24,000 nucleotides of DNA. It comes from Legionella sp. W05-934-2 (GTDB lineage Bacteria > Pseudomonadota > Gammaproteobacteria > Legionellales > Legionellaceae). The stretch covers positions 198,213 through 222,212 of the forward strand of contig NZ_CAXMZT010000004.1 of assembly GCF_964199965.1 (NCBI RefSeq). The letters run 5' to 3'. Below the pieces are notes generated by a model. It made no database searches and was not told where the DNA came from. It saw only the letters and a list, made by a program, of their open reading frames with translations. The position numbers were made by a program, and so were the translations under genes. Position 1 is the first letter of the stretch. Each line of letters opens with the position of its first letter. Of the stretch, positions 22,851 through 22,962 are shown in pieces.

Positions 22851-22881
22851 TGCGTCACTGCATATTCTGTGCAGTGACGCA
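22851..22881. repeat. Hairpin H1, copy 2: perfect 12-bp inverted repeat TGCGTCACTGCA / TGCAGTGACGCA, 7-nt spacer
   Basis: Read directly. Shares the CTGCGTCACTG core with 15938-15971. Confidence 0.9.
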
Positions 22882-22927
22882 TAAAACCACCTTTTAATTT
22901 TATATTTAAAATCAAAAGATTAAGACC

Positions 22928-22962
22928 TCTTGTTCAGAAGCGCTCAACGCGTTTGAACAAGA
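22928..22962. repeat. Hairpin H2, copy 2: TCTTGTTCA(GAAGCG)-CTCAA-(CGCGTT)TGAACAAGA
   Basis: A 9-bp outer stem plus an inner stem with one mismatch and one G-T. The apex GCG-CTCAA-CGC matches 16029-16039. Its centre lies 79 nt from the H1 centre, as in copy 1. Confidence 0.8.

What the first reader, a model, noticed from the sequence alone, without database searches (positions are those of the whole stretch)
22851..22962. Copy 2 of the H1+H2 composite element, 6.9 kb away in the same orientation, with covarying H2 stem
H1 copy 2 is TGCGTCACTGCA-TATTCTG-TGCAGTGACGCA. Its 12-bp arms and 7-nt spacer have the geometry of a tyrosine-recombinase core site.

H2 copy 2 (22928-22962) has a completely different lower stem from copy 1 (TCTTGTTCA/TGAACAAGA versus TTGAGCAATC/GATTGCTCAA). 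It keeps pairing and keeps the apex GCG-YNCAA-CGC. The H1-H2 centre distance is 79 nt, against 79.5 nt in copy 1.

Conserved architecture with compensatory stem changes implies that the folded form (cruciform, ssDNA or RNA) is functional.

The two copies are direct repeats bracketing 15.9-22.9 kb. That segment holds the recombinases, ardA, abiE, the tRNA-fragment junction and the secreted protein. Copy 2 also lies about 180-280 bp beyond the 3' end of a relaxase-like gene of the neighbouring element. Either a nested excisable unit or a shared cis-acting transfer or recombination site used by two adjacent elements would fit.
Basis: partly seen in the sequence, partly recalled or inferred. Interest (0 to 1): 0.7.

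Follow-up and report, generated by a model that had tools for sequence, protein, structure and literature searches.

The report
Orphan transfer-origin-like site in Legionella island
The two-hairpin element is real and widespread in Legionella: it is the DNA site that always sits upstream of a pair of integrase-like genes of the same family as a known atypical conjugation nickase, so it is most likely the long-missing origin of transfer of these mobile islands, and this second copy is a stand-alone one in the neighbouring island.

Summary
H1 (22851-22881) and H2 (22928-22962) exist as described and match copy 1 (15939-15970, 16019-16049) with no indel between H1 and H2. A covariance model finds exactly these two copies in the window.

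The composite recurs in many Legionellaceae genomes. H1 lies 465-721 nt (mostly 511-571) upstream of a tandem pair of tyrosine-recombinase-like genes. All 6 loci found through the protein alone, with enough upstream DNA, carry it. Int2 (PF12834+PF12835) keeps every catalytic residue; Int1 does not. A published classifier uses PF12835 as its signature for relaxase-like integrases, the class in which it places MpsA, the atypical relaxase of Salmonella island SGI1. MpsA's 125-bp multi-hairpin oriT and an essential small RNA also lie upstream of its gene. Legionella GI-type islands were reported to lack a relaxase and an oriT.

Best reading: H1+H2 is the cognate cut-and-rejoin site, probably an oriT, of a MOB_M-type relaxase. 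Homology between elements breaks inside the H1 spacer.

The "nested 6.9-kb unit" is not supported. A tRNA-Met 3' fragment at 21010-21065 separates the copies into two adjacent islands. Copy 2 is an orphan site usable in trans. No test favoured one folded strand. Function is untested.

The parts
22848..22976 (+). Copy 2 of the whole composite element (H1, middle repeat, H2). It is an orphan: no recombinase-like gene, ribozyme or RAGATH RNA follows it.
   Evidence: Covariance model R1 scores it at 102.7 bits, E 1.6e-21. DNA fold z-score is -9.0.
22851..22881 (.). H1 copy 2: invariant arms TGCGTCACTG / CAGTGACGCA with an 11-nt spacer CATATTCTGTG. It can also be read as 12-bp arms plus a 7-nt centre.
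   Evidence: The arms are exact in every Legionella-type element, including 6 found through the protein alone.
22891..22918 (.). Middle inverted repeat, containing the conserved motif TAAAATCAA (22907-22915).
   Evidence: Fold. The motif is nearly invariant in alignment A3. The repeat itself is paired in only 63% of cells.
22928..22962 (.). H2 copy 2: TCTTGTTCAGAAGCG-CTCAA-CGCGTTTGAACAAGA. The right half, GAACAAGAA, matches the family motif G(G/A)ACAAAAT.
15936..16065 (+). Copy 1 of the composite: H1 at 15939-15970, motif TAAATTCAA at 15996-16004, H2 at 16019-16049. H1's right arm ends 563 nt upstream of the first recombinase-like gene.
   Evidence: R1 scores it at 99.4 bits.
16104..16158 (+). 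Type I hammerhead-like ribozyme (GCAUAA / CUGACGAG / stem II / CGAAAC / stem III / GUC, then UUAUGC). The predicted cut is after 16152.
   Evidence: Read directly from the sequence. It is repeated at 18306-18382, a weak Rfam HH9 hit of 24.4 bits against a threshold of 52. Hammerheads upstream of ardA in Legionella are published (PMC3088659).
16420..16514 (+). RAGATH-13 structured RNA, immediately upstream of int1.
   Evidence: Rfam RF02688, 83.7 bits against a threshold of 80. It occupies the same position in 16 of 18 related loci scanned, usually preceded by RAGATH-32.
16533..17336 (+). Int1: a paralogue of Int2 with only the N-terminal SAM_2 domain recognised. It lacks the first catalytic Arg and both His.
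17284..18228 (+). Int2: a PF12834+PF12835 tyrosine-recombinase-like protein with the complete catalytic set (GLRREE, HGLRH, LGHS, Tyr 3 residues from the C-terminus). The true start is probably the ATG at 17329 (299 aa).
   Evidence: PF12835 is the published signature for the class containing the MpsA relaxase (PMC10484663).
21010..21065 (+). 3' fragment of a tRNA-Met gene (anticodon arm, T arm, acceptor end CCA). It is the attachment-site junction between two tandem islands.
   Evidence: Read from the sequence. ARAGORN finds no full tRNA. Homology to L029 ends at 21077. A full tRNA-Met lies about 4 kb before an orphan H1+H2 in L026.
23027..23120 (.). G+C-rich block after copy 2, with GGGGACAA-type direct repeats and GGGTCACCCGCGTCA. 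These resemble the H2 half-site and the H1 core. Its role is unknown.
   Evidence: It is partly shared with L086 (L. norrlandica). There is no Rfam match.
23136..24000 (-). C-terminal part of a Ti-type TraA (MOBQ plus helicase) relaxase gene of the neighbouring island. It runs off the window.
   Evidence: NCBIfam TIGR02768, E 3e-55. Pfam UvrD_C_2.
1605..14461 (+). GI-type (MPF_G) type IV secretion genes. They include TraC/VirB4 (4703-7477), TraU, TraG_N, the coupling protein (11971-13977) and an AcaB-like regulator (13967-14461).

Best explanation
H1+H2 is the cis-acting DNA site of a tyrosine-recombinase-like relaxase module (MOB_M, MpsA type). It is most likely the origin of transfer of the Legionella GI-type (LGI, MPF_G) conjugative islands.

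Shown:
- The composite sits at a fixed place upstream of the Int1/Int2 gene pair.
- Its H1 arms are invariant.
- Related proteins on small plasmids and in other phyla carry an H1-like repeat with the same GTCAC core upstream.
- Homology between elements breaks inside the H1 spacer.

Inferred:
- Int2 (catalytically complete), helped by Int1 (degenerate, DNA-binding), binds the H1 arms.
- Int2 cuts and rejoins one strand in or next to the H1 spacer.
- The middle repeat and H2 (half-sites TTGTYC / GRACAAAAT) are accessory binding sites that build the relaxosome.
- The cut strand is handed to the coupling protein encoded just upstream.
- The ribozyme-processed RAGATH RNAs between site and gene play the part of the SGI1 small RNA.

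Copy 2 keeps all conserved motifs but has no cognate genes. It lies in the next island, beyond the tRNA-Met junction. It is read as an orphan origin that lets that island be mobilised in trans by an LGI-type island, or as a relic of such a module.
For: 1. Linkage to the genes. About 87 are Legionellales or related, and 71 of the 118 loci carry a PF12835-family ORF in the same 8-kb block. In 59 loci H1 is 465-721 nt (mostly 511-571) upstream of int1 on the same strand.

2. Unbiased test. Of 13 metagenome loci found through Int2 alone, all 6 with enough upstream DNA carry the composite in the same place, with exact arms.

3. Cross-phylum and plasmid conservation. Alphaproteobacterial and Nitrospira MAGs have exact H1, followed by a TGTCC-TTCAA-GGACA hairpin, 311-313 nt upstream of a 31%-identical homologue. 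Small Acinetobacter, Shewanella and Francisella plasmids have H1-like repeats with core GTCACT..AGTGAC 360-500 nt upstream of a roughly 40%-identical homologue.

4. Protein family. Int2 belongs to PF12834+PF12835 and has a full catalytic set; Int1 is degenerate. PF12835 is the relaxase-like integrase signature in the classifier that places the SGI1 relaxase MpsA in that class (PMC10484663). TcpM aligns to the family profile (hhalign probability 76%, E 2e-5).

5. Same layout as SGI1: a 125-bp oriT with three inverted repeats upstream of mpsA, an essential small RNA encoded between them, and a second recombinase-derived partner, MpsB (PMC6414798, PMC9299015).

6. Context. The site lies between the coupling protein/AcaB and establishment-type genes (ardA here; ssb and DUF932 on plasmid pPC1000_1). 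That plasmid has a full GI-type T4SS but no recognised relaxase. LGIs were reported to lack a relaxase and an oriT, yet to transfer and to carry this unexplained tandem integrase pair (PMC3864950). MOB_M relaxases are reported as specifically associated with MPF_G ICEs (bioRxiv 10.64898/2026.01.13.699239).

7. Breakpoints. Of 69 element pairs with at least 90% identity in the 100 nt after H1, 59 have unrelated upstream flanks. Spacers often differ only in their left part (L023 against L130). No pair has the reverse pattern.

8. Orphan copies recur near island ends next to tRNA-Met, among varied cargo.
Against: - No functional data exist for this site or these proteins. The nick position, the strand and even transfer dependence are all inferred.
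- The link of MpsA to PF12835 rests on a published classifier, not on an alignment made here. The MpsA, MobK and oriT_SGI1 sequences could not be obtained.
- Int2 keeps everything needed for full recombination, so a recombination role is equally compatible with the chemistry.
- Deleting one of the tandem integrases in strain Corby was reported to raise the episomal form (cited in PMC3864950). A relaxase role does not obviously predict that.
- If the usual rule holds that establishment genes are read from the transferred strand, a nick at copy 1 with 5'-first transfer would send ardA in last.
- Copy 2 lies next to a MOBQ traA gene that should have its own origin. It may be a relic.
- RAGATH-13 was not detected on the small plasmids.
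Confidence: 0.58

Rival explanations
1. H1+H2 is a site-specific recombination site (a res, dif or lox-like site) for the Int1/Int2 pair. H1 is the core site where strands are exchanged, and the middle repeat and H2 are accessory sites on one side, as in the Tn4430 TnpI/IRS system (recalled from memory). Its job would be multimer resolution of the episome or plasmid, or fusion and exchange between islands that carry a copy. It would not start transfer.
For: - Int2 has the full recombinase catalytic set.
- Copy 2 reads as 12-7-12. Adding two nucleotides to each arm gives a 6-8-nt centre in most elements.
- The site sits directly upstream of the recombinase genes.
- Homologues occur on 4-15-kb plasmids that carry few other genes.
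- Homology breaks inside the H1 spacer, as expected for crossover in a central region.
- Deleting one integrase raised the episomal form (PMC3864950).
Against: - MpsA, which a published classifier assigns to this Pfam family, is needed for conjugative mobilisation.
- The distance between the invariant arms varies from 8 to 18 nt, and one subclass has a 13-14-nt centre. That is unusual for tyrosine recombinase core sites.
- Int1 lacks catalytic residues, so a four-strand exchange would need Int2 alone.
- Direct-repeat copies persist side by side (L002 163 nt apart, L015 837 nt apart, the window 6.9 kb apart). No deletion products were seen in relatives.
- These T4SS-bearing islands and plasmid have no other relaxase.
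Confidence: 0.25
2. H1, the middle repeat and H2 are operators or other regulatory elements for the transcript that carries the ribozyme, the RAGATH RNAs and the int genes. Alternatively, they are hairpins in the 5' leader of that RNA. No DNA cleavage would be involved.
For: - The element lies 40-150 nt upstream of a conserved TTGNNN-17-TANNNT promoter-like spacing just before the hammerhead.
- In SGI1 the primary transcript runs through the oriT repeats.
- A terminator-like hairpin overlaps the right arm of H1 in copy 1.
Against: - The promoter match is weak and was not flagged by the scan.
- Orphan copies such as copy 2 have no downstream promoter, ribozyme or gene.
- The sharp homology break inside the H1 spacer is not expected for an operator.
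- There is no strand bias in non-Watson-Crick pairs, which argues against an RNA-only structure.
- Rfam has no such family.
Confidence: 0.08
3. One reading: copies 1 and 2 are the two ends of a nested 6.9-kb unit (recombinases, ardA, abiE, the tRNA junction, the 471-aa gene) that excises as a circle.
For: - The two copies are direct repeats and both are intact.
- A recombinase-like pair lies between them.
Against: - The tRNA-Met fragment at 21010-21065, and the end of homology to L029 at 21077, place the copies in different islands.
- The closest relatives carry copy 1 without a partner within reach.
- The second H1 in contig CAWASG010000002.1 lacks H2.
- No empty-site or circle junction was found among 140 loci.
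Confidence: 0.05

Closest known systems
mobSGI1 module of Salmonella Genomic Island 1 (oriT_SGI1, sgm-sRNA, mpsA, mpsB)
   Same: - A tyrosine-recombinase-like relaxase. MpsA's catalytic residues are R162, H247, R250, H251 and Y319, close to its C-terminus. Int2 has the same order of residues at similar spacing, with its tyrosine three residues from the end.
- The same Pfam family as Int2, according to a published classifier.
- A second recombinase-derived partner protein.
- A 125-bp oriT with three inverted repeats a few hundred bp upstream of the gene.
- A structured small RNA encoded between the oriT and the gene.
   Different: - The partner here is a full-length degenerate paralogue placed before the active gene, not a 98-aa core-binding domain placed after it.
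- The RNAs here are a hammerhead plus RAGATH-32 and RAGATH-13.
- The site is A+T-rich with a long invariant 10+10 repeat; oriT_SGI1 is G+C-rich with a 7-bp key repeat.
- SGI1 has no T4SS of its own, whereas this island has an MPF_G system.
- Sequence similarity of the sites and RNAs could not be tested.
Other MOB_M (tyrosine-recombinase-like) relaxases: TcpM of pCW3 and MobK of pIGRK
   Same: - An integrase-like protein acts with an oriT just upstream of its gene. That oriT carries several inverted and direct repeats and overlaps the gene's promoter region.
- TcpM aligns to the Int2 family over the catalytic domain, including the C-terminal H.R..T.IYL motif.
   Different: - TcpM belongs to PF00589, not PF12835.
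- These are single proteins without a tandem paralogue or ribozyme-associated RNAs.
- They occur in a Gram-positive host or on a 2.3-kb plasmid.
iOriT islands (integrative elements that carry only an oriT and hitch on an ICE; Ares-Arroyo et al. 2026 preprint)
   Same: Copy 2 and other orphans (L002, L015, L026, L093) are stand-alone copies of the helper's site. They sit in islands integrated at the same tRNA, among cargo and defence genes.
   Different: - The island that holds copy 2 also carries a MOBQ traA gene, so it is not relaxase-free.
- That study covered six nosocomial species, and Legionella is not mentioned in its text.
loxP/Cre, dif/XerCD and Tn4430 IRS/TnpI recombination sites
   Same: - Perfect inverted arms around a short asymmetric centre.
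- A site immediately upstream of a tyrosine recombinase gene.
- Accessory repeats on one side of the core.
   Different: - The arm-to-arm distance is not constant (8-18 nt).
- One of the two proteins is catalytically dead.
- There is no evidence of resolution or inversion products.

Membership tests
MOB_M / MpsA-type mobilisation module (oriT plus tyrosine-recombinase-like relaxase) | A relaxase of the tyrosine-recombinase superfamily, of the PF12835 type, with a catalytic tyrosine | tested here: met
   Int2 matches PF12834 (E 7e-12) and PF12835 (E 1.6e-8). The R, K, HxxRH, H and Y residues are conserved across the family alignment. The link of MpsA to PF12835 is taken from PMC10484663, not from an alignment made here.
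MOB_M / MpsA-type mobilisation module (oriT plus tyrosine-recombinase-like relaxase) | Scores above the cut-off (84) of the published MOB_M profile, or aligns directly to MpsA (AAK02039.1) or MobK (AAS55463.1) | not testable with these tools
   Neither the profile nor those sequences were available. Only TcpM could be fetched (hhalign probability 76%, E 2e-5 over 144 columns).
MOB_M / MpsA-type mobilisation module (oriT plus tyrosine-recombinase-like relaxase) | A compact site of about 125-150 bp, with several inverted repeats, in the first large intergenic region upstream of the relaxase gene | tested here: met
   The composite is 129 nt, with H1, a middle repeat and H2. In 59 loci H1 lies 465-721 nt (mostly 511-571) upstream of int1, and 6 of 6 protein-found loci carry it.
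MOB_M / MpsA-type mobilisation module (oriT plus tyrosine-recombinase-like relaxase) | The site is required in cis for conjugative transfer and is nicked by the relaxase | not testable with these tools
   This needs mating assays and nick mapping. The only indirect support is the homology breakpoint inside the H1 spacer.
MOB_M / MpsA-type mobilisation module (oriT plus tyrosine-recombinase-like relaxase) | Association with an MPF_G T4SS and coupling protein, or with a mobilisable island | tested here: met
   The window holds TraC_F_IV, TraU, TraG_N, DUF2895, DUF3438, a coupling protein and a PFL_4669/AcaB-like gene. The order coupling protein, then H1, holds in 10 loci.
Tyrosine-recombinase core site (lox, FRT or dif type) | Two inverted 11-13-bp arms around a centre of constant length, 6-8 bp | tested here: inconclusive
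   Copy 2 fits 12-7-12. Most elements fit 6-8 if each arm is extended by 2 nt. However, the spacer between the invariant arms ranges from 8 to 18 nt, and one subclass has a 13-14-nt centre.
Tyrosine-recombinase core site (lox, FRT or dif type) | Recombination products between two sites (deletion, inversion or integration junctions) | tested here: inconclusive
   Left flanks are shuffled with breakpoints in the spacer, and the spacer is flipped in L084 relative to L008. No deletion between the window's two copies was seen in relatives.
Single-stranded folded site (integron attC or CTX-phage type) or structured RNA | Strand-specific folding, shown by one-strand bias in wobble pairs or in folding energy | tested here: not met
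   Within the H2 stem, non-Watson-Crick cells are 41 G.T/T.G against 46 A.C/C.A; over unique H2 sequences the counts are 34 against 40. Both strands fold with z-scores of -8.4 to -9.9. There is no Rfam family.
iOriT (an island that carries an oriT but no relaxase or T4SS) | No relaxase or mating-pore genes in the same island | tested here: not met
   A Ti-type traA gene lies 174 nt beyond the end of H2 in copy 2. Whether it is intact cannot be seen, because it runs off the window. Other orphan-bearing islands (L026, L093) show no relaxase in the 8-kb block.

The most novel reading that the evidence does not exclude
The H1 spacer is the actual cut-and-rejoin point of an enzyme that is both relaxase and recombinase. 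Int2 would start transfer at H1, and it would also join H1 sites of different islands. That would swap everything to the left of H1 between elements and fuse or split tandem islands such as the two in this window. This would explain why nearly identical modules sit behind unrelated flanks and differ only in the left part of the spacer.

A further possibility: a 3'-phosphotyrosyl linkage would reverse transfer polarity. The ardA side would then enter first, as template strand. The ribozyme-trimmed RAGATH RNAs would act as a required RNA cofactor of the relaxosome.
Probability: 0.15. Interest if true: 0.85.

Novelty: new member of a known kind. Interest (0 to 1): 0.6.

Why it matters
A 2013 study of Legionella GI-type islands reported that they transfer by conjugation although no relaxase or oriT could be found on them. 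It also reported that a conserved tandem integrase pair had no explained role.

The evidence here connects three things:
- that pair of genes;
- a precisely defined 129-nt DNA site;
- known orphan RNA motifs (hammerhead, RAGATH-32, RAGATH-13).

Together they form one module with the layout of the SGI1 mobilisation system. This gives a directly testable candidate oriT and relaxase for a whole class of Legionella mobile elements. It also suggests a biological context for two RNA motifs of unknown function.

Stand-alone copies such as copy 2 would mark islands that can hitch a ride. That matters for predicting which Legionella islands, carrying effectors, defence genes or metal resistance, are mobile.

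The GTCAC-core repeat upstream of PF12835 genes on small Acinetobacter, Francisella and Shewanella plasmids suggests a further point. Many plasmids typed as non-mobilizable may in fact carry a mobilisation system.

Tried and rejected
- Rfam scans at gathering and E-value thresholds. No family covers H1 or H2; the only hits there were spurious microRNA and RUF6 matches.
- Viral contig scan for H1. It gave 3 hits, with no recombinase homologue; they look like unrelated phage operators.
- Actinobacterial and other non-Legionella H1 hits (about 31 of 118 loci). They have no PF12835-family ORF nearby, so they are unrelated palindromes that share the 10-mer.
- Wobble-pair strand-bias test for a single-stranded fold. 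It showed no bias.
- Cassette model for the DUF3644 gene next to copy 1. There is no second H1 at its other end, so it is just an insertion or deletion relative to L. anisa.
- The idea that the 471-aa gene before copy 2 corresponds to a 477-aa gene on plasmid pPC1000_1. They are not homologous.
- Look-ups of the window's own proteins in the contig index. Two proteins were tried and neither is on record.
- A sigma-70 promoter between H2 and the hammerhead. The spacing is conserved, but the match is too weak for the scan.
- RAGATH-13 on small plasmids. It was not detected.
- Fetching pIGRK by accession AY543071 and pCW3 by DQ366035. Neither accession is in the collections; pCW3 was then fetched as NC_010937.
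- MpsA sequence in the supplements of PMC6414798. It is not held there as text.
- Profile search of solved structures. It found no relative.
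Full report
**1. The observation**

- Copy 2 has H1 at 22851-22881: arms TGCGTCACTG / CAGTGACGCA with spacer CATATTCTGTG.
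- Copy 2 has H2 at 22928-22962.
- Copy 1 has H1 at 15939-15970, pairing out to 15935-15974, and H2 at 16019-16049.
- The H1-H2 centre distances are 79 and 79.5 nt.

The 10-mer arm occurs four times in the window, against 0.73 expected. The H2 apex motif on its own is not significant. The two copies align over about 130 nt with no indel between H1 and H2. They also share an A+T-rich middle part containing TAAA(A/T)TCAA. As single-stranded DNA, both copies fold into three hairpins far better than shuffles do, and equally well on either strand (z = -8.4 to -9.9).

**2. The element is a family**

About 87 are Legionellaceae or close relatives. The rest, mainly Actinomycetota, have no related gene nearby and are unrelated palindromes.

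In the Legionella-type loci, a second hairpin follows H1 at a fixed offset, 45-81 nt after the right arm. Its stem sequences differ widely between loci.

I aligned 75 distinct elements (A3).
- For H2, 14 of 16 pairs change on both sides, 79% of cells pair, and the covariation score is 0.18 against 0.03-0.05 when partners are slid.
- 70 of 75 elements keep at least 8 of 12 inner H2 pairs.
- The best-conserved parts outside H1 are the right halves of the repeats: TAAAATCAA and G(G/A)ACAAAAT.
- One subclass keeps the half-sites TTGTCC...GGACAA but not the upper H2 stem.
- G.T and A.C mismatches are equally common.

So pairing potential is conserved, but nothing shows that one folded strand is the active form.

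A covariance model built from A3 finds exactly two full copies in the window, both on the + strand.

**3. What it is linked to**

tblastn of the window's proteins against the loci showed which genes travel with H1: the two overlapping integrase-like genes at 16533-17336 and 17284-18228.
- In 59 loci H1 lies 465-721 nt (mostly 511-571) upstream of int1, on the same strand.
- A profile search finds a family member in 71 of the 118 blocks.
- As a check free of the search bias, I fetched 13 metagenome loci through the Int2 protein alone. All six with enough upstream DNA carry the composite at the same place, with exact arms, although Int2 identity is only 65-90%.

The link extends beyond Legionella.
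- An alphaproteobacterial MAG and a Nitrospira MAG have exact H1, followed by a TGTCC-TTCAA-GGACA hairpin, 311-313 nt upstream of a single 31%-identical homologue.
- Int2 homologues of about 40% identity sit on 4-15-kb plasmids of Acinetobacter, Francisella, Shewanella, Psychrobacter and Bibersteinia. Of the 193 plasmid records hit, 118 are typed non-mobilizable.
- Upstream of three of the four I examined is an H1-like repeat with the shared core GTCACT...AGTGAC.

All of these proteins are PF12834+PF12835.

**4. The proteins**

Int2 has the full tyrosine-recombinase catalytic set: GLRREE, WTKGG..R, HGLRH, LGHS, and a tyrosine three residues from the end. Int1 is a 25%-identical paralogue that has lost the first arginine and both histidines. 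No solved structure is related at sequence level.

**5. The rest of the module and its surroundings**

Between H2 and int1 lie three RNA elements.
- A type I hammerhead-like ribozyme at 16104-16158, with a predicted cut after 16152. It is repeated after int2 at 18306-18382.
- In most relatives, RAGATH-32.
- RAGATH-13, at 16420-16514 in the window.

Hammerheads next to integrase genes, and upstream of ardA in Legionella, are already published (PMC3088659).

Upstream of copy 1 are a GI-type (MPF_G) secretion system, the coupling protein and an AcaB-like regulator. Downstream are ardA and an AbiE pair.

On plasmid pPC1000_1 the order is the same: T4SS, coupling region, AcaB, topoisomerase III, H1, int pair, ssb, DUF932. 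No relaxase is annotated on it, and it is typed non-mobilizable.

**6. What is known**

- Wee et al. 2013 reported that Legionella GI-type islands have no detectable relaxase or oriT, yet one of them conjugates. They also found a tandem integrase pair downstream of 13 of 14 clusters, with an unexplained effect on the episomal form (PMC3864950).
- SGI1 is mobilised by MpsA, a tyrosine-recombinase-like relaxase. It works with MpsB, a 125-bp oriT carrying three inverted repeats upstream of mpsA, and an essential small RNA encoded between the oriT and mpsA (PMC6414798, PMC9299015).
- MobK and TcpM are further examples of such relaxases (PMC8152469).
- The Burrus-lab classifier uses PF12835 as its signature for relaxase-like integrases, the class to which it assigns MpsA (PMC10484663).
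- A 2026 preprint names the family MOB_M. It reports that the family is common in chromosomes and specifically associated with MPF_G ICEs. It also defines iOriT islands, which carry only an oriT.
- TcpM, the only member I could fetch, aligns to the Int2-family profile over the catalytic domain.

**7. Evidence that DNA is cut and rejoined at H1**

I compared elements pairwise. Of 69 pairs that are at least 90% identical over the 100 nt after H1, 59 have unrelated sequence in the 60 nt before H1. No pair shows the opposite pattern.

Several elements are 99-100% identical downstream yet differ in the left part of the spacer only. One example is AGGATTTAC|CCG in L. anisa against CAATAT|CCG in a metagenome contig. 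The junction between exchangeable left flanks and the conserved module therefore lies inside the H1 spacer. That is expected for a nick or crossover point, not for an operator. One close pair, L008 and L084, has the whole spacer flipped.

**8. Copy 2 in particular**

A 3' fragment of tRNA-Met lies at 21010-21065, and homology to the L. rubrilucens relative (L029) ends at 21077. This is the kind of tRNA-derived repeat that marks tandem insertions in these hot spots (PMC3864950). Copy 1 therefore belongs to the T4SS island. Copy 2 belongs to the next island, 1.8 kb inside it.

Copy 2 lies after a 471-aa gene of unknown function. It lies before a G+C-rich block and the 3' end of a Ti-type traA gene on the other strand.

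Copy 2 keeps every conserved motif, but no promoter-like spacing, ribozyme, RAGATH RNA or int gene follows it. Its nearest relatives are an orphan of the same type in L. norrlandica and ordinary int-linked copies.

The same layout occurs elsewhere: a tRNA-Met gene or fragment, then 2-4 kb of cargo, then a + strand H1+H2. It is seen in L. tucsonensis and L. gresilensis. L. parisiensis and L. pneumophila fraseri have two direct copies 163 and 837 nt apart.

In the one other contig with two H1 sites in the window's arrangement, the second has H1 only.

**9. Conclusion**

The best-supported reading is that H1+H2 is the cognate cis site of a MOB_M/MpsA-type relaxase module. It is probably the oriT of LGI-type islands. 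Copy 2 would be an orphan that can be used in trans, or a relic.

The main rival is a recombination site for the same proteins. It cannot be excluded, because Int2 keeps full recombinase chemistry, and because the spacer breakpoints and the reported episome phenotype would fit it too.

The nested 6.9-kb unit is not supported.

All functional steps remain inferred: binding, nicking, strand choice and the role of the RNAs.

Noticed in passing
window 16104-16158 and 18306-18382: Two type I hammerhead-like ribozymes with complete catalytic cores flank the RAGATH-13/int1/int2 segment. Each is followed by a 50-nt repeat that is 90% identical between the two (16159-16208 and 18367-18416). Self-cleavage at both would release a 2.2-kb RNA carrying both int genes. 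Only the second copy gives a weak Rfam hit (24.4 bits against a threshold of 52).
   Followed up: partly
window 16420-16514; related loci: RAGATH-13 lies 18 nt before int1. In most Legionella relatives the order is H1, H2, hammerhead, RAGATH-32, RAGATH-13, int1. This places two Rfam motifs of unknown function in the position of the essential SGI1 small RNA.
   Followed up: partly
window 21010-21065: A 3' fragment of tRNA-Met (anticodon arm, T arm, CCA end) with no full tRNA gene in the window. It marks the junction of two tandemly inserted islands.
   Followed up: yes
window 18229-18282: A 27+27-nt near-perfect palindrome with no spacer (AAATCAATCAAAACGTGTTTTAAATTT and its complement) starts right after the int2 stop codon, before the second hammerhead. 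Its role is unknown.
   Followed up: no
window 23027-23120: A G+C-rich block in an A+T-rich region. It contains GGGGACAA-type direct repeats and GGGTCACCCGCGTCA, which resemble the H2 half-site (GGACAA) and the H1 core (GCGTCA). It sits between copy 2 and the traA stop codon. The GGGACAA repeats are partly shared with L. norrlandica contig L086.
   Followed up: partly
window 14862-15934: The DUF3644 gene (14907-15875, - strand) is present directly left of H1 here, in L. rubrilucens and in L. maceachernii. It is absent from the otherwise 94%-identical L. anisa locus. The right end of the difference lies within a few nt of H1.
   Followed up: partly
window 14824-14842 and 15996-16014: A 19-nt inverted match (17 of 19) between a sequence left of the DUF3644 insertion and the conserved TAAATTCAA...ATTATTC motif between H1 and H2. 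In L. anisa the left copy lies about 60 nt from H1, hinting at a larger symmetric site.
   Followed up: no
window 20795-20857: Two 26-nt direct repeats (ATAACGTCATAAATAGTCATTTTTAT, 88% identical, 37 nt apart) lie just upstream of the AbiEi-like gene. They are a likely operator of the AbiE pair.
   Followed up: no
loci L008 and L084: Two elements with 90% identical downstream sequence carry the same 11-nt H1 spacer in opposite orientations (CAATTTATTAG against CTAATAAATTG). This is a flip of the loop between the palindromic arms.
   Followed up: partly
loci L124, L125, L127 (small plasmids of Acinetobacter, Francisella, Shewanella): Plasmids of 4-9 kb typed as non-mobilizable carry a single PF12835 gene with an H1-like GTCAC-core inverted repeat 360-500 nt upstream. 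They may have an unrecognised mobilisation system.
   Followed up: partly
loci L006, L020, L028, L034, L044, L053, L061, L088, L094, L103 and others (Occultella, Intrasporangium, Pedococcus, Agromyces): Actinobacterial genomes contain multiple copies of a palindrome with the same 10-nt arms and a 15-nt spacer such as ACCCGTCACGTGGGT, sometimes in tandem. No PF12835 gene is nearby. Their nature is unknown.
   Followed up: partly
locus L087: One MAG contig has H1, H2 and a hammerhead region followed directly by ardA, with no int genes. A deletion between the two hammerhead repeats would produce this.
   Followed up: no
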